The translations under genes and the position numbers were made by a program. From a virus (lineage: Duplodnaviria; Heunggongvirae; Uroviricota; Caudoviricetes), in IMG/VR virus record IMGVR_UViG_638341087_000022: DNA of 43,322 nucleotides, one strand, 5' to 3'. Shown one piece after another: positions 2,835 through 16,037 of the stretch. The number at the start of each line of letters is the position of its first letter. Position 1 is the first letter of the stretch. The notes below the pieces were generated by a model, which saw only the letters and a list, made by a program, of their open reading frames with translations, was not told the origin of the DNA and did not search any database.

Positions 2835-5800
2835 TTATGCCTGAGTACGCAGCGCTTCAAGGCGGCGCAGGTCGAAGTCGTTCAGTTCGTCGGTGTAGTC
2901 AGCAGTGATTGGCGCTGGCCATTCACCTGTGTCGAATCCGGTTGCGATATTGCGCATCGCTTTGCGGTACTCGAGCATACCCAGCTCCAGTAGTTCAGCG
3001 GATGCCTCGATGATGGCGATCCAGTGGTAGTTCTCGTCTTTGTTGACGAAAATCCAGAAGAACTGATCCAGCGCTGCGGTTTCGCAGTACATAGCCGCGC
3101 TCAGGTGATAATCACGTTCAATAATTTCCCGGTGTAGCCTGGCGCGCAGGCTTTCCTGCTTAACATTCCACATGCTGATGGTTTTCAGGTCTGCACCTAT
3201 ACGCACGCCATCCAGGTCGATCTCAAGGTCAGGGCGCACACGAACTTCCAAGCCCGTCTCCTCGTCAAAACCAAAGTAGCTCACCTCAACGGCTCGGCTA
3301 GGGTGGGTCAGCAGCATGCCGGCGGTCGGGTGTGCCAGAAGCGCTTTTTGAATATTCAGCGCGGTGCTCAGCTGCTGGCGGGTGACCAGCACTTTTCCTT
3401 CCGGGTTATCGCGCCAGGCATCCAGCAGTTCGTCGGCAAATACGGCATCTGGTTTGACTGCCTTCACGGCCTGGATCATGTCTGCTTTGGTACCGGACAC
3501 TTTCAGTGGTGCCGGTTTCTGTGCTTCCTGAGCCACAAGGTCAGGGTTGATGATTGCCAACTGCTCCAGCAGCGCGTCACGGCTGCCGCTGGTTTTAACC
3601 GGCGGCGGCAGGGTGGCGTTGTACTCTTTAATGCATGCCTTCATTGCCGTCGCCGTCTGCTTCTGGTCACCATCAATACGCTGGAAGTCAGCTGGCAGCG
3701 CCATATAGGTCTGTGCCGTTTCTTCCAGGTTAGCGCCAAGCGGAACCTGCGGCGGCAGGGTGGCGTTGTACTCTTCCAGTAACACCTTGATGTCGTCGGC
3801 AGACAGCAGCGCCGGCAGGCTGGCATTGTGCTCATCGATAAAGGCGCGCAGGGTCGCGGCCGTTGTGAATGCGCCTTCAGGGATCACCGGTTCAACGCTG
3901 AATTCTGCGTCCAGTAGTTCAGGCTGCAACGCCAGCGCATGCACCAAGTTGCCCATGTCCAGCACCGCTGAGCGCTCTTTGACGATGGTTTTCTCTACGT
4001 GGCGCGCATTGAAGTACATCAGCGAAACGCGCGCATCTTTCACCTGGGTTGAGCTGATGCCGTTGGCGGCGTGGTAAACCTCGTTTGGCAGCCCTTCATA
4101 GCGGCCTGGCTCGAAATAAGCGGGATAAACAACAGCTGGTTCGTCAGATTGCGCTTCTGGCTCGGTTTGTGCTGCAACTGGTTCGGTTTGGCTTACAGAA
4201 TCGCTATTTTTGGCGACAGAATCCGTATTCTGGTTTACATCGTCCTTCTGGCTGGTATCTGACTCTTCACCAGACTCCAGACTGCTTTCGCCTGGCTGTA
4301 CTTCATCACCAGCTTGTTTTTCATCACTGACAGTTTCTTGAACCTGCACATTGCTGGTGGTCTCCGTAGCCTTTTTCGTGCCATGAGTTGCTGAGTTCTG
4401 CAGCAAAGCCGTAACGTCGAATATTCCGTTGCCGACATTTTTAACCAGTTCTTGTTCGACTTTCTGCGGTTGTGCTGCCGCTTCCTCTGCGCGGCGGCGT
4501 GCTCCTTCTTCACGCACGCGTTGCAGGTTCTCTTCGTGAGTGCAGAAGGATTTGCGCGGAGACTCCTTACCTTCAGGTTGGGGAATTTCCTGTGCTGCGG
4601 GTTCAGCCTCATGCAACGGCAATAACTCGACCGCGGAATTGAACGCGGCTGTCATGGTCTGGTTAACAAATTCCAGGTGAGCGACAGGAGTTAAATGAAT
4701 ATTTTCCGGTGCGATACGTACCAGGTTAAAAATAGCCGTGCGGTTAACACCCAGAACGCCTGGCTGATTGCGCAGGATGTTGCTCCATGATTTCCATGGT
4801 TCTTCTTTTTTGGTCACGATTTCTTTAGCGCGACGAAGAATGCTGCCCGGGATCTCGAAGTGGTTGAAGTCCATAGGCAGAAGGGCACACGCAATCTCTA
4901 AATCGAGAGTGTCCAGTGTGTGGTGTGCGTCAGGTCCACGGTCAGTGACGTAACCGCCGTCGGCATTAGTGCCGGAATCAGTACGCTGCACACTACTGAT
5001 GCGATTACCGGCGGCCCATTCGCGAACGAGGATACCGCGGTCGATGTGATCTGTAGCGAACCACAATTTCAAAAACTGGATTAAGGTTGCGAGTTCAGGG
5101 ATTTTTCCATCGACAGGGAAGACTTTCTTAACGGCATTCACGACTTTATGAATATCGTGCTCAATGGCTTTTTTGAATGCTTCCACATTCTCAGCTGCCA
5201 GCAGCAGGTTCTGGACGTACGCGTCATCGGTGTCCATCTCAAGGAGGACAATCTCATTTTTCTGCCCTGCGTCGATGTGATAGAGATATTCACCATCACC
5301 GATGAACTGAGCCAGTACGCGCTGGCGGAATGGCAGGGTGGCAACAACGATCAGGTTCGGTTGCTGTGTCTGCTGGGATTGCTCTTCGGTATCGACTTCA
5401 CCATCAACGACGCCACCTTCTGCCCGGCCGTTCTCGTCGGTCTGGATACCGTCCTCAACAGTGAGATCTTGACCCGTTGTAACGTCAGCAGCGTTGCTGG
5501 TTTCAGTTTTGAGCAACTGCAACTTACCACTGCGCCAGTCTTCTACCAGTTGATTGCGGTCACCGGCATCGGTGTTCACCCAGTCAGACATGAATGCAGC
5601 GATCAATCTTGGTTCGTGCTCTTCGTCTGGTGTGAAAATGTCCTTAACCGCCCGAATCATTTTCCACTCAGCATTCAGGCTGAGTTTGGCGGTCGCGGGC
5701 ACATCGTTCCTTGCCACAAGCAGGCTATGGAGATATGTATTGCCTTCATCCAGTGACATTTCGCTGGCAGCCAACTGCTGCTCTTTAGTGACGTGGGTTT

Positions 5801-7364: not shown

Positions 7365-7790
7365 TTATTCAACAGATGATGGGGGGGTCGGTGCTTTCTT
7401 AAAGATCGACCACTGAGAAATGTAGGTCAGCAACCTTGAGCTTAACTCGAGTTCTTTTTGTAATATTTCGTCATAACGTTTTTTTGCTGCTTGCATGGTC
7501 GCATCACTAGCGTGATTGTCATCCATAATGATCTTTAGCCTTTTCTTTTCTCGGCTTGAGCATATTGTAAATAACAGACCTGTAAATGACATTCCACCAA
7601 AATCCTTTAACGTTTTGATTACAAAAAGAAGAATCAAAGACAGAAAAGGAACAGATCTGTAGGCCCAATCACGAAACTCACCGTCAGGAAAGAAGATAGG
7701 AATAGCATCTGTAGCATAACCACATATGAGGGAGACAATTAGAAAAGGTAGTCCATTTTTAGCTACATTTTTAACGTTATCGTTAGCCAT
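7365..7790 (-). CDS. Membrane protein (141 aa), possible SieB-type exclusion protein
   Basis: ATG at 7790 overlaps the stop of the upstream gene by 8 nt; about three hydrophobic segments in the N-terminal half, charged helical C-terminus; AT-rich. Confidence 0.5.
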   Translation of the reverse strand: MANDNVKNVAKNGLPFLIVSLICGYATDAIPIFFPDGEFRDWAYRSVPFLSLILLFVIKTLKDFGGMSFTGLLFTICSSREKKRLKIIMDDNHASDATMQAAKKRYDEILQKELELSSRLLTYISQWSIFKKAPTPPSSVE

Positions 7791-9338: not shown

Positions 9339-9878
9339 ATGCAGTCACTATCACTTCATCAAAATAGCGGATATCAAACGGCTGCGATGATAAATCGCAA
9401 TCAACCTGTCTCGGTAGATAAACATGACCAGATCCGCGATGCCGTTCGTGCGTGGGCGGGTGTAGATGGTCAGGATGTCGTTTCTGCTCTGATCATCGAA
9501 GAGTACCAGGCTCAAGGGGGAGACGAGATCACTTTCCCTGATGACCTCAGCCGACAGCGTCAGAAGCTTTTCCGCTTTCTGGATAACCATTTCAACAGCG
9601 AACGGTACCGCGAAAACGTTCGCCAGCTGACTCCGGCAATCCTCGCTGTCCTGCCGATTGAATACCGCAATCGTCTGCTACCAGAAGACAACGTAATGGC
9701 TCGTCTGGCAAGGCTGGAGAAGGAAACCAGCGAAGCGAAGATTGCTGTCGCAATGGATGCGCCACGTCATCAGAAGCTGAAAGAGTTGAGCGAGGGGATC
9801 GTGGAGATGTATCGCGTTGACCCTGGGTTAACCGGTCCGTTGATGGAAATGGTGCAGATTATGCTGGGGGCTATATGA
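9339..9878 (+). CDS. CII-position protein, possibly YdaT-like (179 aa)
   Basis: Immediately after the Cro-like gene and before O; assignment is by position and vague recollection only. Confidence 0.35.
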   Translation: MQSLSLHQNSGYQTAAMINRNQPVSVDKHDQIRDAVRAWAGVDGQDVVSALIIEEYQAQGGDEITFPDDLSRQRQKLFRFLDNHFNSERYRENVRQLTPAILAVLPIEYRNRLLPEDNVMARLARLEKETSEAKIAVAMDAPRHQKLKELSEGIVEMYRVDPGLTGPLMEMVQIMLGAI

Positions 9879-9962
9879 CCGGTTCAAAAATGGCGAAAGC
9901 CGCGGTGCTCGAACACCAACGGCTTTCAGGTGCAAAAACAGTGCGTAATTGCGGAGAACAGT

Positions 9963-10871
9963 ATGTCAAACACCGCTGAAATAATCAATTTCCCAAATAA
10001 AACCGAACAACCGGGAGGTCGTATGGCCGACCTGTCGAACGGGTATACCAAGGTCGCTAACGAGATCCAACAGCTTAAGCCTCGCCTGAGACTGTCAGGC
10101 CGGGAATGGCAATGTTTTGAGGCGGTGATCTGGCTTACCTACGGCTGGAACAAGAAACAGGACCGCGTGACAAATACGGTTATTGCCGAGCTTACGGGCC
10201 TGAGCGATACGCATGTATCGGACGCGCTTAAGTCTCTCGCAGAACGCAAAATCATCTTTTCACAGAAGCAGGGCATGATGAAAATCGTCGGTGTAAACAC
10301 TGACCTTTCAGCATGGATTTTAGACAAACCGGAAACGGGAAGAAAATTCCCGAAAACGGGAAAATCCTTCCCGAAATCAGGAATAACCTTCCCGAAAACG
10401 GTAGACACCCAATACAAGAACAAGAACAGTATTAAAAGATCTTCGTCCGAGAATTCTGACGAATCCTCTGACGCACGTCTGAAGAAATTTTTATCAACTC
10501 ATCCTGAAGCTGCGGTCTACACACCATCCGGTGCGAAGTGGGGCTCTGCTGAAGACCTCGAGACAGCTAAGTGGATTTCCTCCAGGGTGAAGCTGATTAA
10601 CCCAACCTGCAAAGCCCCGGACATGACCTCCTGGTCTAACACTGTTCGCCTGATGCGCCAGATAGACGACCGGTCGCACCAGGACATCTGCGCGCTGTAT
10701 GACTGGGCTAGCAAACACCACTTCTGGCAGACCAACATCCTGAGTCCCGAAAGCCTGCGTAAGCAGTGGGACAAGCTGACAATGCAGCGTAACGCCGGAG
10801 GTGAGCAGCGCGCTGTCAAGCCAGATCTGGACTTCAACAACACTGACTGGGCCTATGGGGTGATCCGATGA
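9963..10871 (+). CDS. O: Replication initiator, lambda O-like (302 aa)
   Basis: N-terminus NTAEIINFPNKT and TYGWNK..DR match lambda O; iteron repeats are embedded in the coding sequence. Confidence 0.8.
   Translation: MSNTAEIINFPNKTEQPGGRMADLSNGYTKVANEIQQLKPRLRLSGREWQCFEAVIWLTYGWNKKQDRVTNTVIAELTGLSDTHVSDALKSLAERKIIFSQKQGMMKIVGVNTDLSAWILDKPETGRKFPKTGKSFPKSGITFPKTVDTQYKNKNSIKRSSSENSDESSDARLKKFLSTHPEAAVYTPSGAKWGSAEDLETAKWISSRVKLINPTCKAPDMTSWSNTVRLMRQIDDRSHQDICALYDWASKHHFWQTNILSPESLRKQWDKLTMQRNAGGEQRAVKPDLDFNNTDWAYGVIR
10326..10445. repeat. Replication origin: four iterons plus AT-rich tract inside O
   Basis: Four repeats of the TTCCCGAAAACGGGAA type followed by an AT-rich tract; same pattern as lambda ori iterons. 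Confidence 0.6.
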
Positions 10872-11557
10872 AATCTCTTGCAGAGCAGATGCGTAACCAC
10901 GACCGCGAGCAGATGAGCCGCATGGCCCATAACCTGCCAGAGCAGTACCAGGAGTGCGCGCCGGTCGAGCAGGTGGCGCAGGTATTCAACAAGCTGTTCA
11001 ACGAGCTGCGCGCCGCGTTCCCGGCCAGCATGGCGAACTTCCGCACCCAGGAAGACCTGAACGAATTCCGCCGTCAGTGGCTGCTGGCGTTTCAGGAGAA
11101 CGGGATCCACACCATGGCTCAGGTCGATGCCGGCATGCGCATTGCCCGCCGCCAGGAGCGCCCATTCCTGCCGTCGCCGGGCCAGTTCGTCGCCTGGTGC
11201 AAGCAGAGCGGCGGCGCGCTGGGCGTCAACGTTGACCAGGTGATCGCCGAATACTGGGACTGGCGTAACCGCTCGTTCGAATTCATCTCCAGCGAGCAAT
11301 TTCCATGGTCGCAGCCGGTCATGTACCACATTTGCGTAGAATTGCGCCACCGCAGCACCGAGCGCCAGTTAACGCATGGTGAACTGGCACGCGAGGCAGG
11401 CGATCTGCTGGACATGTGGGAAAGGCGCGTCACCGAGGGTAAGCCAGTGCCGCCGGTACGCCGGGCTATTGCCGCACCAGCTGCCGAGCAAGGGCCGACG
11501 CCGATCCAGCTGCTGCTGGCCAAGTACAACCGCAACAAGTCGAACGGGATGGTGTGA
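10868..11557 (+). CDS. P: Replication protein P (helicase loader), lambda P-like (229 aa)
   Basis: Strong colinear match to lambda P, e.g. RPFLPSPGQFVAWC; ATGA overlap with O. Confidence 0.85.
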   Translation: MKSLAEQMRNHDREQMSRMAHNLPEQYQECAPVEQVAQVFNKLFNELRAAFPASMANFRTQEDLNEFRRQWLLAFQENGIHTMAQVDAGMRIARRQERPFLPSPGQFVAWCKQSGGALGVNVDQVIAEYWDWRNRSFEFISSEQFPWSQPVMYHICVELRHRSTERQLTHGELAREAGDLLDMWERRVTEGKPVPPVRRAIAAPAAEQGPTPIQLLLAKYNRNKSNGMV

Positions 11558-11558
11558 C

Positions 11559-11799
11559 ATGAACATAACAATCCGTGAGCAGGTGCTGGCAGCCCTGCGC
11601 AACAACCCAGGGTTGAACAACGCCAAACTGGCAGGGCTTCCCGGAGTGGTACATCATCGATCAGGACTATCGGGGGCAGAAGTACGCGAAGGACAAGCAG
11701 GTTGCGCGTTGTGGCAACGCAGTTCCGCCGCCATTCGCCGAGGCACTGGTGAGGGCTAATTTACCGGAGCTTTGTCAGCAGAAAGAGATCGCAGCTTAA
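11559..11799 (+). pseudogene. Remnant of a C5-cytosine DNA methyltransferase gene (N-terminal stub joined out of frame to a 3' end)
   Basis: ATG at 11559 gives MNITIREQVLAALRNNPGLNNAKLAG; an alternative frame reads QGFPEWYIIDQDYRGQKYAKDKQVARCGNAVPPPFAEALVRANLPELCQQKEIAA*, a typical C5-MTase C-terminus (GNAVPP motif). Confidence 0.5.
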
Positions 11800-11898
11800 T
11801 GTCCGAGTTTCAGAACATGGTGTAACAAATCCTGCTACTTCAATGACGTAGATTCAAACCTGATATAATTAGGCTCTTCACAACACGAGGAGCCTAAA

Positions 11899-12135
11899 AT
11901 GCACCATTACATGATCCCTATCAACGGAACTGTTCACCTGATCAAGACTGACTCTCTAATCCCTGAAGGGACTGAGTATAGCTTTGAAGGAGAAAGTCTA
12001 ATCTGCGCTCATGCCACTTTTAAATCTGGGACGTATGGCTTCCTGATACCAAAGGGAAATCAGTTGAATAGAGAGCATGCGTTCTGGCATGTAAGTGGAA
12101 TTCACCCTAATCCCCTGGGAATGGATAAATCGTAA
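11899..12135 (+). CDS. Hypothetical moron protein (78 aa)
   Basis: ATG with GAGGAG RBS; AT-rich; sits between two copies of the methyltransferase 3' end. Confidence 0.45.
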   Translation: MHHYMIPINGTVHLIKTDSLIPEGTEYSFEGESLICAHATFKSGTYGFLIPKGNQLNREHAFWHVSGIHPNPLGMDKS

Positions 12136-12289
12136 TCCATAATATGCATGCCATCGTCCTGAACATACGGTGGCATGCATCCGGCACTACAACAGAAACG
12201 TTAAAGTGCAAACAATACAATTCGAGCAATATTCAACCTGTCACAGATGGCGAATACCACCGCCATTTCGTGCATTCTGTGGTTTCTAT

Positions 12290-12387
12290 TACCCATTGCG
12301 TTAATGCTGTCCAATCATCAGCTCGCTGAGGCGCTGGTTAGGGCTAACCTACAGGAGCTTTGTCAGCAGAAACAAATAGCGGCGTAA
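12290..12387 (+). pseudogene. Second, degraded copy of the methyltransferase 3' end
   Basis: Reads ...HCVNAVQSSAR* and, in a shifted frame, EALVRANLQELCQQKQIAA*; direct repeat of 11740-11799 at roughly 85 percent identity. Confidence 0.4.
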
Positions 12388-12406
12388 TAAAACATCGCTA
12401 ATTCAA

Positions 12407-12432
12407 CCCGCTACGGCGGGTTTTCTTTTTTT
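12407..12432 (+). terminator. Intrinsic terminator
   Basis: CCCGC-TACG-GCGGG followed by TTTTCTTTTTTT. Confidence 0.6.
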
Positions 12433-12494
12433 ACTACTGACAGAAAATTAACAATTTGTGCTCTTAAAGCGTTGATCATTTCCGCGCATAGGTA

Positions 12495-12514
12495 TACTGT
12501 ATAAAAACACAGTA
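12495..12514. promoter_or_regulatory. LexA (SOS) box
   Basis: TACTGTATAAAAACACAGTA: perfect CTGT-N8-ACAG, 19 bp upstream of the DinI-like start codon. Confidence 0.65.
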
Positions 12515-12532
12515 AATGCAATGGGGGCCATT

Positions 12533-12766
12533 ATGAAAGTTGAATTAACCATTGATCGCATGAAAGAACTTCCTAAAGGCGCAGTACCAGCACTGGAGAA
12601 AGAACTGCTTAAGCGCCTGAATGATCACTATGACAATTGCAGGCTCACAATCCGCCGTGCCGGGGCCGATGGGTTAAGTGTTTTTGGTGGTGACAAGGAC
12701 GATAAAAAGAAAATTGAATCAATCCTCCAGGATACCTGGGAAAGCGCTGACGACTGGTTTTATTAG
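12533..12766 (+). CDS. dinI: DinI-family protein (77 aa)
   Basis: C-terminal ILQDTWESADDWFY matches E. coli DinI; GGGGG RBS; LexA box upstream. Confidence 0.8.
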   Translation: MKVELTIDRMKELPKGAVPALEKELLKRLNDHYDNCRLTIRRAGADGLSVFGGDKDDKKKIESILQDTWESADDWFY

Positions 12767-12883
12767 AATTGCGCTTAAGGCTGGCGCGCATTTTTCAGAA
12801 TACCGCAATTTGCGTAACCCTCTGATGCTGCTGCCGACAATCTTTAATCGCGTCTGTTAGTCGCTCGAAGGGAGAACATAAAT

Positions 12884-13132
12884 GTGAGTGATTCAGCTTT
12901 GCAAACGTCAGAAGACAACTGGTATGACATTGTAAGAAGGTCTGACGGCTGCGTGGTGTTTAGCTTTCCTTCATCGGGCAGGCATCTAATTTATCGCGTC
13001 AATGGCATGGTTTCTATGCGGCCTTTGCTGGATGATGAAGAGGTCTTTACTCCTAATGGTTTTATGCAGTTTATTCACCGTCTCGGCTACCGGGTAACCC
13101 CACCTTCTGATAATATGAAATCAACGGTCTGA
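12884..13132 (+). CDS. Hypothetical protein (82 aa), downstream of the DinI-like gene
   Basis: GTG start in the ORF track; no terminator between it and the DinI-like gene, so it may be co-transcribed under LexA control. Confidence 0.4.
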   Translation: MSDSALQTSEDNWYDIVRRSDGCVVFSFPSSGRHLIYRVNGMVSMRPLLDDEEVFTPNGFMQFIHRLGYRVTPPSDNMKSTV

Positions 13133-14609: not shown

Positions 14610-14743
14610 AGCCAGAAACGCTCGAGGAACTCCGCGCACGCTGGCAGCGCCTTCGCATTTACCGCTACCGTGGATCGGTGCTGGTGGATTACCGCATTCT
14701 TCGTAATTTTGTTCGCATCTATCATTCAGCAGGAGCCGCATAA
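14606..14743 (+). CDS. Small basic protein (45 aa), YlcG-position; not in the ORF track
   Basis: ATGA overlap with rusA and TAATG overlap with Q; same size and position as DLP12 ylcG. Confidence 0.4.
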   Translation: MKPETLEELRARWQRLRIYRYRGSVLVDYRILRNFVRIYHSAGAA

Positions 14744-15552
14744 TGAACCTCGAATCAATCGCTAAATATTTCGCGCCAAAATCACCGATGTTCAGTGACT
14801 CCTCGAGGGCGACTGCCACCGACAACCTGACCGGAACTGATGTTATGGCCGCGCTTGGACTGGTTAACGCCAAGTGTGGGTTTGGATTTGATTTGTACCT
14901 TGCAAAAATTGGCATCAGCAGCCCGGATCGGGCAATGGAGGCGCTTTATGAATCATCCGTTGAACTTTGCCGACGCTTCAAATCAGTTTCAGAACTCAAT
15001 GAAGAAATCCGTCGGCGAGTTCTCGAAATTTTGTGTGCTTTTGCATATCAGGATTATGCCCGCAGCGCGGCAAGTGTCAGACGCTGTGATTGCTGCGCTG
15101 GTAGCGGCCTCATCGAAGCTGATGTCTTCACAAACAAGGTCCAATACCCGGACGGTAAGCCTCCGGTATGGGCGAAGGCTACAAAAGGAGTGTTTCCGTC
15201 GTATTGGGAAGAATGGAAGTCTGTACGGGAGACTGCGCGGGTTATGTGCAATACCTGTAACGGCAAGGGTGTTATCAGCAATGCGTGTCGCTGTCATGGG
15301 AAAGGGAAGGTACTGGATAAGAAGGCAACTGAATTACAGGGCGTTCCGGTGATGAAAGTTTGTGAGCGGTGTACGGGCAGAGGTTATGCCAGGTTAAAAT
15401 TCTCCAATGTGTTAGAAGGTATCCGCACCACATGGGATGTGAAGAAAACGACGGCATATGAGCAAGTGCAACCGTTGTTTGAACTGCTGGTGGAGGAATG
15501 CCATCGTCAGGAGAGTTATGCAGACAGCGCCTTAAAGTCAGTTACCCGTTAG
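14743..15552 (+). CDS. Q: Late-gene antiterminator Q, lambda-type (269 aa)
   Basis: N-terminus ESIAKYFAPKSPMFSDSSRATATDNLTGTDVMAALG closely parallels lambda Q; CxxC Zn-finger pairs; C-terminal ESYADSALKSVTR parallels lambda ESIADNILNAVTR. Confidence 0.85.
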   Translation: MNLESIAKYFAPKSPMFSDSSRATATDNLTGTDVMAALGLVNAKCGFGFDLYLAKIGISSPDRAMEALYESSVELCRRFKSVSELNEEIRRRVLEILCAFAYQDYARSAASVRRCDCCAGSGLIEADVFTNKVQYPDGKPPVWAKATKGVFPSYWEEWKSVRETARVMCNTCNGKGVISNACRCHGKGKVLDKKATELQGVPVMKVCERCTGRGYARLKFSNVLEGIRTTWDVKKTTAYEQVQPLFELLVEECHRQESYADSALKSVTR

Positions 15553-15962: not shown

Positions 15963-16037
15963 GCCGGTCTAGTTCAGTGGGAGAACGGCAGATTTGTAAT
16001 CTGCGCGTCAGAGGTTCGATTCCTTTGCCCGGCACCA
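15963..16037 (+). tRNA. tRNA-Thr (anticodon UGU), phage-encoded
   Basis: Manual cloverleaf: acceptor GCCGGTC/GCCCGGC (one U6-C67 mismatch), D-arm GTTC-AGTGGGA-GAAC, anticodon arm GCAGA-TTTGTAA-TCTGC, T-arm AGAGG-TTCGATT-CCTTT, discriminator A plus CCA. Confidence 0.65.

What the first reader, a model, noticed from the sequence alone, without database searches (positions are those of the whole stretch)
11559..12432. Methyltransferase gene remnants duplicated around an inserted moron
Seen: a stub beginning MNITIREQ... runs out of frame into a C5-cytosine methyltransferase C-terminus (..RCGNAVPPPFAEALVRANLPELCQQKEIAA*, ending 11799). About 590 bp downstream a second, more degraded copy of the same 3' end (..EALVRANLQELCQQKQIAA*, ending 12387) is followed by the terminator. 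The 60-bp direct repeats are about 85 percent identical and flank an AT-rich 78-aa ORF (11899-12135). Inference: a footprint of successive cassette exchange by recombination inside a conserved methyltransferase gene, leaving a new moron of unknown function.
Basis: seen in the sequence. Interest (0 to 1): 0.5.

Follow-up and report, generated by a model that had tools for sequence, protein, structure and literature searches.

The report
Decayed phage methylase module keeping small gene
This stretch of an E. coli lambda-like prophage is what remains of a large DNA-methylase gene and its small 78-residue companion gene: the methylase was lost by deletions, the companion was kept, and two leftover methylase tails still recombine, which is ordinary phage mosaic evolution seen in unusual detail.

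Summary
The sequence features are real, but one is misread. Two C5-cytosine-methyltransferase 3' ends (11735-11800 and 12323-12388; 66 nt, 83% identical) flank a 78-aa ORF (11899-12135), and a terminator follows.

The 'MNITIREQ' stub is not methyltransferase. It is the first 27 codons of a Ren-like gene, fused out of frame to the last 55 methyltransferase codons. The fusion comes from a 718-bp deletion relative to phage mEp237, with 9 bp of microhomology at the junction.

In related IMG/VR phage contigs an intact 650-737-aa methyltransferase sits directly upstream of the same promoter and an orf78-family gene. Orf78 is therefore this methyltransferase's usual downstream neighbour, not a new insert.

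Copy 2 is a 48-codon fragment of a second methyltransferase. It lies where a methyltransferase 3' end natively abuts the terminator and dinI (Klebsiella phage 5 LV-2017).

At least eight different 5' truncations of the methyltransferase all spare orf78. Four E. coli genomes carry the exact crossover product between the two copies, without orf78.

Orf78 belongs to a small uncharacterised family with no recognisable fold, so its function is unknown. This is a well-documented case of known lambdoid mosaicism, of modest interest.

The parts
11559..11639 (+). 5' stub of a Ren-like winged-helix gene (27 of 114 codons). Its last 9 nt (11631-11639, GCAGGGCTT) are the microhomology at the deletion junction.
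   Evidence: 100% identical to mEp237 L001 2660-2740. mEp237 gp44 matches PHROG 142 (E 1.8e-28) and Pfam HTH_24.
11559..11759 (+). 66-aa chimeric ORF: the ren-like N-terminus read out of frame through the methyltransferase fragment. RefSeq annotates it as a hypothetical protein; it is most likely non-functional.
   Evidence: The exact protein is on at least 1000 public contigs. It exists only because of the 718-bp deletion.
11631..11799 (+). Methyltransferase copy 1: the last 55 codons (motif IX-X region, ..QGFPEWYIIDQDYRGQKYAKDKQVARCGNAVPPPFAEALVRANLPELCQQKEIAA*) of a large orphan C5-cytosine methyltransferase.
   Evidence: Identical to the end of the mEp237 134-aa fragment (Pfam PF00145 E 3.9e-7, profile positions 270-320; PHROG 23072 positions 259-399 of 400). 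Collinear with intact 649-737-aa methyltransferases in L036, L043 and L023.
11735..11800 (+). Direct repeat, arm 1 (66 nt).
   Evidence: 83% identical to 12323-12388. A 19-nt block (11766-11784) is identical in both arms.
11843..11869 (+). Conserved promoter segment ATGACGTAGATTCAAACCTGATATAAT with an extended -10 (TGaTATAAT, 11861-11869).
   Evidence: The exact motif is in 29 IMG/VR contigs, always upstream of an orf78-family gene. L012 has TGgTATAAT at the equivalent place. TGNTATAAT occurs only twice in the window. mEp237 annotators marked a promoter here. The generic -35/-10 scan did not call it.
11869..11897 (+). 11-bp hairpin that buries the orf78 Shine-Dalgarno (GAGGAG, 11887-11892).
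   Evidence: Folding gives -16.4 kcal/mol, z -7.4. Analogous hairpins occur in three other orf78 subfamilies. Any regulatory role is inferred.
11899..12135 (+). orf78: a 78-aa protein of a small uncharacterised family (PHROG 30079).
12144..12180 (+). 14-bp hairpin just after the orf78 stop, without a U-tract.
   Evidence: -22.2 kcal/mol, z -3.7. It is weaker in L007 (z 0.2), and the terminator scan did not call it.
12243..12387 (+). Methyltransferase copy 2: a 48-codon C-terminal fragment of a second methyltransferase allele, broken by a +1 frameshift (extra A at 12320).
   Evidence: The unbroken 80-aa ORF in L036 and L043 aligns to the methyltransferase C-terminus: 24 of 48 identical, E 4e-14. 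L007 has a 58-nt deletion here.
12323..12388 (+). Direct repeat, arm 2 (66 nt). From here rightwards the sequence is 97-99% identical to prophages that have unrelated DNA to the left.
12405..12431 (+). Intrinsic terminator (AACCCGC-TACG-GCGGGTT followed by a T-run).
   Evidence: z -4.3. It is orthologous to the terminator after the intact methyltransferase of Klebsiella phage 5 LV-2017.
12495..12766 (+). LexA box (TACTGTATAAAAACACAGTA, 12495-12514) and the dinI-family gene (12533-12766): the conserved right-hand neighbour.
   Evidence: Sequence read. Pfam DinI E 4.3e-26. RefSeq annotation.

Best explanation
The region is the decayed remnant of a two-gene nin-region module of an mEp237-like lambdoid prophage. 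The module is a large orphan C5-cytosine methyltransferase followed about 100 nt later by a small gene, orf78, with its own extended -10 promoter.

Proposed history:
1. The methyltransferase-orf78 module was joined out of register to another phage's methyltransferase-terminator-dinI arrangement (inferred). This left a 48-codon tail of the second methyltransferase (copy 2) between orf78 and the terminator.
2. In this lineage the first methyltransferase was cut down to a 134-codon stub, as seen in mEp237 (shown).
3. A 718-bp deletion at a 9-bp microhomology then fused codon 27 of the ren-like gene, out of frame, to the last 55 methyltransferase codons (shown).
4. Copy 2 picked up a +1 frameshift (shown).

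Orf78, its promoter and its ribosome-binding site stayed intact.

The two 66-bp tails are 83% identical and remain substrates for homeologous recombination. A crossover within their 19-nt identical block removes orf78, and exchanges at copy 2 swap the right or left flank (shown).

Likely cause of repeated methyltransferase loss (inferred): a prophage C5-methyltransferase is harmful in hosts carrying methyl-dependent nucleases such as McrBC.

Orf78 is most likely a cytoplasmic accessory protein made from its own promoter. Its biochemical function is unknown.
For: Deletion:
- Window 11300-11639 matches mEp237 L001 2401-2740, and window 11631 onward matches L001 3450 onward. That is a 718-bp gap with a 9-nt overlap.
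- The stub is Ren-like.

Intact relatives:
- L043 (716 aa), L036 (649 aa), L023 and L028 (737 aa) and L044 (687 aa) carry a full methyltransferase with a Pfam PF00145 match (tested for L043 and L036).
- In each, the methyltransferase is followed by the same promoter and an orf78-family gene.
- L012 has an intact 657-aa methyltransferase followed by a 40%-identical orf78 homologue with TGgTATAAT upstream.

Repeated truncation:
- Eight distinct left junctions of methyltransferase homology map to reference positions 7776, 7871, 7901, 7952, 7958, 7977, 8016 and 8091 in L043.
- All of them keep the promoter and orf78.

Copy 2:
- It is native to the terminator and dinI. Klebsiella phage 5 LV-2017 has an intact methyltransferase, then the homologous terminator, then DinI.
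- It occurs behind unrelated DNA in KL53 and ECCWS199.
- It is a methyltransferase tail.

Recombination between the copies:
- AR_0119, WEM25, GPEC60-12-649 and M172-1 carry the same ren'::'methyltransferase junction.
- Their single methyltransferase end matches copy 1 up to GGAGCTTTGTCAGCAGAAA and copy 2 after it. Orf78 is absent.

Other support:
- The prophage encodes RecT and an exonuclease VIII-like protein.
- Phage Rad52-like recombinases recombine about 22%-diverged DNA and leave traces at mosaic borders (PMC2327257, PMC3945230).
- McrBC kills cells when a methyltransferase gene enters on a phage (PMC2614495).
Against: - The order and direction of events cannot be proven. The orf78-less hybrid could also arise by exchange between two phages rather than by intramolecular deletion.
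- The founding out-of-register join is inferred from the end product only, and its left boundary (about 12181-12243) has no identifiable donor.
- Selection against the methyltransferase is an inference. The mcrBC status of hosts with intact or truncated copies was not examined.
- dN/dS among close orf78 alleles is only 0.2-1.0, based on very few substitutions. Recent purifying selection on orf78 is therefore not demonstrated.
- The methyltransferase family also occurs without orf78 (L011, L014, ZF40), and orf78 occurs without it (L013, L030). The pairing is frequent but not obligatory.
Confidence: 0.8

Rival explanations
1. One reading: a moron cassette (promoter plus orf78) was inserted into a single conserved methyltransferase gene by successive cassette exchanges, and the two remnants are the footprints of that insertion.
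For: - Orf78 is absent between the methyltransferase and dinI in Klebsiella phage 5 LV-2017 and in AR_0119-type prophages.
- It has its own promoter-like element.
- Methyltransferase tails lie on both sides.
- L020 also has two methyltransferase remnants, around a three-gene insert.
Against: - In L036 and L043 the upstream methyltransferase is complete up to its stop codon, so nothing was inserted into it.
- Within copy 2, the first 26 aligned codons match copy 1 at about 23% and the last 22 at about 82%, so the two copies are not halves or duplicates of one gene.
- Orf78 homologues only 40% identical occupy the same position behind intact methyltransferases.
- Gene loss in the window is by deletion.
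Confidence: 0.12
2. Intragenomic tandem duplication of the methyltransferase 3' end (slippage or unequal crossover), followed by divergence, with orf78 arising or landing between the copies.
For: The repeats are direct, close together (588 bp apart) and in the same orientation.
Against: - The 17% divergence within the 66 nt and the near-random identity further upstream do not fit a recent duplication.
- Copy 2 alleles 97% identical to the window's are attached to the terminator and dinI in prophages that lack copy 1 and orf78.
- Window copy 2 and L007 copy 2 differ more in the last 66 nt than in the upstream part, which indicates allele swapping.
Confidence: 0.04
3. Copy 2 is not junk but a small functional gene: the 80-aa ORF that is open in L036 and L043, built from a methyltransferase tail.
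For: An uninterrupted 80-aa ORF is present in two phages that also keep the intact methyltransferase.
Against: - It is frameshifted by one A in the window, in mEp237 and in 32 E. coli genomes.
- It carries a 58-nt deletion in L007 and a different truncation in L033.
- Its ATG sits inside the hairpin, with no Shine-Dalgarno sequence visible.
Confidence: 0.03
4. Assembly or sequencing artefact that created a false repeat.
For: None found.
Against: The identical structure is present in an independently sequenced phage, in 32 complete genomes from different laboratories and platforms, and in many metagenomic viral contigs.
Confidence: 0.01

Closest known systems
Enterobacteria phage mEp237 (NC_019704) gp44-gp48 region
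   Same: 99.7% identical DNA. It has the same methyltransferase C-terminal fragment, annotated promoter, 78-aa hypothetical gene (gp47), copy 2, terminator and DinI gene.
   Different: mEp237 still has the complete ren-like gene, a 65-aa ORF and a 134-codon methyltransferase stub. The window lacks these 718 bp. Among 5426 complete E. coli genomes the deleted form is the common one: 31 genomes against 1.
Morons of lambdoid phages (Juhala/Hendrix concept; reviewed in PMC3594210)
   Same: A small gene with its own promoter, present or absent between genes that are adjacent in related phages (methyltransferase and dinI), in the nin region.
   Different: It has no canonical terminator of its own. 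Its GC content differs only from the left flank. It is usually found with one particular neighbour, the C5-methyltransferase, rather than as a free-standing insert.
Mosaic borders made by homeologous recombination (Martinsohn 2008, PMC2327257; De Paepe 2014, PMC3945230)
   Same: Short diverged homologies (66 nt, 83%) at the edges of exchanged segments. A RecT/exonuclease VIII recombinase pair is encoded in the same prophage. An actual crossover product was observed.
   Different: Here the homology is a fossil gene tail that persists as a linker after the gene itself is gone. No recombination assay was done.
Orphan C5-cytosine methyltransferases of temperate phages (Pfam PF00145; PHROG 23072; e.g. 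Klebsiella phage 5 LV-2017, Pectobacterium phage ZF40 gp21)
   Same: Copy 1 and copy 2 are homologous to the C-terminal motif IX-X region of these 650-740-aa enzymes. The genomic position, between the replication genes and dinI/ninB, is also the same.
   Different: The window holds only the last 55 and 48 codons, with no catalytic or SAM-binding motifs, so there is no enzyme here.

Membership tests
C5-cytosine DNA methyltransferase (Pfam PF00145) | Full catalytic core: SAM-binding motif I (FxGxG) and catalytic motif IV (PC), as well as motifs IX-X | tested here: not met
   The window fragment covers only profile positions 288-320 of 324 (E 0.041 on its own). The mEp237 stub covers 270-320 (E 3.9e-7). 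Intact relatives match both the N- and C-terminal parts.
C5-cytosine DNA methyltransferase (Pfam PF00145) | Homology of both fragments to the C-terminal motif X region (..GNAVPP..) | tested here: met
   Copy 1 is identical to the end of the mEp237 fragment and about 82% identical to Klebsiella phage methyltransferases. Copy 2, in its unbroken form, is 50% identical over 48 aa, E 4e-14.
Ren-like exclusion protein (PHROG 142) | Complete winged-helix protein of about 114 aa | tested here: not met
   Only codons 1-27 remain, followed by out-of-frame sequence.
Moron | Absent between the same two neighbouring genes in related phages | tested here: met
   In Klebsiella phage 5 LV-2017 the methyltransferase stop, terminator and dinI are contiguous. 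AR_0119-type prophages lack orf78.
Moron | Own promoter | tested here: inconclusive
   A perfect extended -10 (TGaTATAAT) lies 29 nt before the ATG. It is conserved in all five orf78 subfamilies and is rare in the window. There is no good -35, the generic scan is negative, and activity was not measured.
Moron | Own terminator directly downstream | tested here: not met
   The hairpin at 12144-12180 lacks a U-tract and is degraded in L007. The first canonical terminator is at 12405-12431, beyond copy 2.
Moron | Base composition different from both flanks | tested here: not met
   GC is 42-45% against 57-67% on the left, but equal to dinI and the following genes on the right.
Deletion or exchange by recombination between direct repeats | A hybrid repeat with the crossover in a shared identical stretch, found in a sibling genome | tested here: met
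   The L003 sequence matches copy 1 up to the 19-nt identical block and copy 2 after it. This form is found in 4 complete genomes.
Known anti-defence or defence protein families (PADLOC, Pfam, NCBIfam; solved and predicted folds) | Sequence or fold similarity of orf78 to any described family | tested here: not met

The most novel reading that the evidence does not exclude
Orf78 may define a new family of small phage proteins functionally tied to carrying an orphan C5-methyltransferase. One example would be an inhibitor of methyl-dependent (type IV, McrBC/Mrr-like) restriction or of another host defence. The family evolves as highly divergent alleles (about 40% identity) between conserved flanks. 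In this reading it is translated only from its own promoter, because an anti-Shine-Dalgarno hairpin, cut off by the predicted transcription start, silences read-through transcripts.
Probability: 0.15. Interest if true: 0.6.

Novelty: new member of a known kind. Interest (0 to 1): 0.3.

Why it matters
- **A worked example of mosaicism.** This one locus shows an out-of-register join that leaves a gene tail, stepwise loss of a large gene by deletion at microhomology, and reuse of the fossil tails as homology for later exchanges. Natural intermediates and products are all present in public genomes.
- **An annotation error on many contigs.** The 66-aa 'hypothetical protein' found on at least 1000 contigs is a fusion artefact of a deletion. 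The conserved orf78 is left unannotated in the one RefSeq genome examined (AR_0118).
- **A testable candidate gene.** Orf78 is widespread in E. coli and Citrobacter prophages, linked to a methyltransferase, driven by its own promoter, and of unknown function. That makes it a reasonable target for anti-defence or exclusion screens.

None of this changes current understanding of lambdoid phage evolution.

Tried and rejected
- **Rfam scan of 11400-12900.** Only one sub-threshold chance hit.
- **Generic sigma-70 scan.** It found no promoter. The extended -10 was found by eye and then supported by conservation.
- **Exhaustive HMMER search.** The long repeat proteins it returned (P0006-P0010) are summed weak repeat matches, not relatives.
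- **Promoter motif scan of species-representative genomes.** No matches.
- **Literature on mEp237.** Nothing about this locus. One anti-CRISPR preprint mentions mEp237-like regions as places where acr genes cluster, but says these phages lack those genes.
- **ZF40 neighbour.** The gene next to the homologous methyltransferase in ZF40 is an HTH regulator, not an orf78 relative.
- **dN/dS on close orf78 alleles.** Too few substitutions to be informative.
- **DNA mimic idea.** Orf78 is only mildly acidic (pI 5-6.3), which does not support a DNA-mimic role.
- **Chance similarity upstream of copy 2.** I first thought the similarity upstream of the 66-nt repeat (ITHCVNAV versus VARCGNAV) might be chance. 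The unbroken ORFs in L036 and L043 showed it is real.

Full report
**Context**

The window is a lambdoid prophage. In order it carries:
- an integrase (1-1194);
- RecT and an exonuclease VIII-like protein;
- a CI-type repressor and a YdaT-like gene;
- replication genes O (9930-10871) and P (10868-11557);
- the region in question;
- dinI, ninB-like, ybcO-like and rusA-like genes, and Q (14743-15552);
- a tRNA-Thr, then lysis and structural genes.

The region is 100% identical to prophages in many complete E. coli genomes and 99.7% identical to phage mEp237.

**Checking the observation**

- An ORF beginning MNITIREQ (11559-11759) overlaps, in another frame, a C5-methyltransferase C-terminus ending at 11799.
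- A second methyltransferase-like end finishes at 12387.
- A canonical terminator follows at 12405-12431.
- The direct repeat is 66 nt (11735-11800 / 12323-12388), 83% identical, with a 19-nt identical block.
- Between the repeat arms lies the 78-aa ORF (11899-12135).

The structure recurs in independent sequences, so it is not an artefact.

**What the stub really is**

Aligning the window with mEp237 shows that 11300-11639 and 11631 onward match two places 718 bp apart in the phage. The 9 nt GCAGGGCTT are present at both ends.

In mEp237 the MNITIREQ gene is a complete 114-aa Ren-like winged-helix protein (PHROG 142, Pfam HTH_24). It is followed by a 65-aa ORF and a 134-codon methyltransferase C-terminal fragment.

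The window therefore carries a microhomology-mediated deletion. It fused codon 27 of the ren-like gene, out of frame, to the last 55 methyltransferase codons. The resulting 66-aa ORF is annotated as a hypothetical protein in RefSeq and sits on at least 1000 public contigs.

Among 5426 complete E. coli genomes:

| Form | Genomes |
|---|---|
| Deleted form, as in the window | 31 |
| mEp237 form | 1 (CUWW10) |
| Derivative without orf78 | 4 |

**The small ORF is a real gene, and it is not new to this position**

Orf78 matches only PHROG 30079, of unknown function. Large-database searches found two close clusters and two 40%-identical relatives.

One distant relative, P0004, lies directly behind an intact 657-682-aa C5-methyltransferase in a lambdoid prophage (L012). 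An extended -10 (TGgTATAAT) and a GAGGAG ribosome-binding site lie in between.

I scanned IMG/VR for the 27-nt promoter segment upstream of orf78 (window 11843-11869). This returned 29 contigs.
- In every one an orf78-family gene follows, including a fifth allele group.
- In L043, L036, L023, L028 and L044 a complete 649-737-aa methyltransferase ending ...AEALVRANLPELCQ[QS]K[EQ]IAA* lies immediately upstream. L043 and L036 were confirmed as PF00145 members.

So methyltransferase followed by orf78 is a recurrent two-gene arrangement, and the window holds a decayed copy of it.

The pairing is not obligatory. The methyltransferase occurs without orf78 in Klebsiella phage 5 LV-2017, in an E. coli ExPEC prophage and in ZF40. 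Orf78 occurs without the methyltransferase in L013 and L030.

**Repeated loss of the methyltransferase**

I mapped where methyltransferase homology begins in each locus relative to L043. This gives eight distinct left junctions, at reference positions 7776, 7871, 7901, 7952, 7958, 7977, 8016 and 8091.
- Each junction is followed by a retained promoter and an intact orf78.
- L041 even shows a second out-of-frame fusion, of another gene's N-terminus to the methyltransferase tail.
- L007's remnant carries an in-frame stop and a lost stop codon.

The large gene has therefore been destroyed many times while its small neighbour was kept.

A plausible reason, inferred and not tested here, is that a prophage C5-methyltransferase is harmful in hosts with methyl-dependent nucleases. 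McrBC kills cells when a methyltransferase gene enters on a phage (PMC2614495).

**What copy 2 is**

- In L036 and L043 the sequence downstream of orf78 is an unbroken 80-aa ORF. Its last 48 residues align without gaps to the methyltransferase C-terminus: 24 of 48 identical, E 4e-14.
- In the window one extra A at 12320 breaks it. L007 has a 58-nt deletion here.
- Identity to copy 1 is about 82% in the last 22 codons and about 23% in the preceding 26. The two copies are therefore different alleles, not a fresh duplication.
- Copy 2 sits where a methyltransferase end belongs. In Klebsiella phage 5 LV-2017 an intact methyltransferase is followed by the homologous terminator and a DinI gene.
- From 12321-12323 rightwards the window is 97-99% identical to prophages whose left side is unrelated. 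KL53 keeps a 99-nt remnant behind an HTH gene, and ECCWS199 keeps about 75 nt behind other small genes.
- In L007 the whole copy1-orf78-copy2 module is conserved at 84-90%, but a different terminator, a 60-aa ORF and a HolE-like gene follow the stop codon.

The simplest history is an out-of-register join of a methyltransferase-orf78 module to the 3' part of another phage's methyltransferase-terminator-dinI. Later exchanges then used the tail as homology.

**Recombination between the two copies is directly visible**

AR_0119, WEM25, GPEC60-12-649 and M172-1 have the same ren'::'methyltransferase junction. They carry a single methyltransferase end that is copy 1 up to GGAGCTTTGTCAGCAGAAA and copy 2 afterwards. 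Orf78 and 588 bp are missing.

I cannot tell whether this arose within one genome or by exchange between phages.

The prophage encodes RecT and an exonuclease VIII-like protein. Such recombinases are known to recombine about 22%-diverged sequences and to leave homology traces at mosaic borders (PMC2327257, PMC3945230).

**Orf78 itself**

- Fourteen distinct intact alleles fall into five groups, about 40% identical between groups. They align without gaps, with invariant M1, Y4, P7, L14, K16, P22, G24, G31, C36, H38, Y46-G47, L49, G53 and PNPL70-73.
- This argues for a folded protein under long-term constraint. dN/dS among the close alleles is uninformative (0.2-1.0 from at most 14 substitutions).
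- AlphaFold2 gives a five-strand sheet with a C-terminal helix (pLDDT 80.5).
- There is no signal peptide-like or strongly acidic character.
- The promoter evidence is a perfect TGaTATAAT 29 nt before the ATG. It is conserved in all groups, including the otherwise unalignable L012 spacer, and occurs only twice in 43 kb. Activity was not measured, and the generic scan was negative.
- The hairpin after the gene lacks a U-tract and is not conserved in L007.
- As a 'moron' it meets the presence/absence criterion and probably the promoter criterion. It does not meet the terminator or composition criteria.

**Comparison with what is known**

Phage mosaicism through illegitimate and homeologous recombination, gene remnants at junctions, and morons are all well described. 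The mEp237 record already annotates the methyltransferase fragment, the promoter and the hypothetical gene.

What is added here:
- the correct identity of the stub;
- the deletion mechanism;
- the origin of the two tails;
- the observed crossover product;
- the recurrent methyltransferase-orf78 association, with repeated methyltransferase loss.

**Verdict**

- This is a new, well-resolved example of a known kind of phage genome evolution.
- It contains an uncharacterised but widespread small gene whose function is the only open question of wider interest.
- Interest is 0.3.
- The most novel reading not excluded is that orf78 is a methyltransferase-linked anti-restriction or anti-defence factor with hairpin-gated translation. 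I give this about 0.15 probability.

Noticed in passing
window 11869-11897: An 11-bp hairpin (-16.4 kcal/mol, z -7.4) pairs the orf78 Shine-Dalgarno with a segment that starts at the last base of the -10 element. A transcript started about 7 nt after the -10 would lack the 5' arm, and the remaining fold is only -1.7 kcal/mol. Read-through from upstream would contain the whole hairpin. Comparable SD hairpins exist in the L007-, L013- and L020-type alleles (the last with a different sequence) but not in L012.
   Followed up: partly
window 11843-11901 versus L013 1233-1291 and L030: The promoter and 5' UTR are about 90% identical between loci whose orf78 proteins are only 40% identical. These are divergent alleles between conserved flanks, as expected for cassette exchange or diversifying selection.
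   Followed up: partly
protein P0003 (public collection); window 9339-9878 and 11899-12135: A 142-aa database protein joins the N-terminal part of the YdaT-like gene to residues 19-78 of orf78. This implies another deletion variant, spanning O, P and the methyltransferase remnant, or a misassembly, somewhere in public data.
   Followed up: no
window 12495-12514 and 12533-12766: A consensus LexA box (TACTGTATAAAAACACAGTA) lies in front of the prophage dinI-family gene. L012 has a similar box (TACTGTATATAACAACAGTA) before its homologue of window ORF 12884-13132.
   Followed up: no
L002 (E. coli AR_0118, NZ_CP020048) 3160-4134: RefSeq annotates the 66-aa deletion-fusion ORF as a protein but leaves the conserved orf78 unannotated in this genome. 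GenBank mEp237 annotates orf78 as gp47.
   Followed up: partly
L005 (E. coli ECCWS199) 2850-2941: A tRNA-Ile gene is annotated on the opposite strand inside the variable cassette that replaces the methyltransferase-orf78 module upstream of copy 2 and dinI.
   Followed up: no
L020 3200-4260: A second double-remnant example: a methyltransferase tail of about 55 nt, the promoter, an L020-type orf78, two further small ORFs (85 and 72 aa), then only the last 32 nt of copy 2 with the terminator and dinI. The right junction (window 12356) falls inside the 19-nt block shared by both copies.
   Followed up: partly
window 15963-16037: A tRNA-Thr (anticodon TGT) lies downstream of the Q antiterminator gene.
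   Followed up: no
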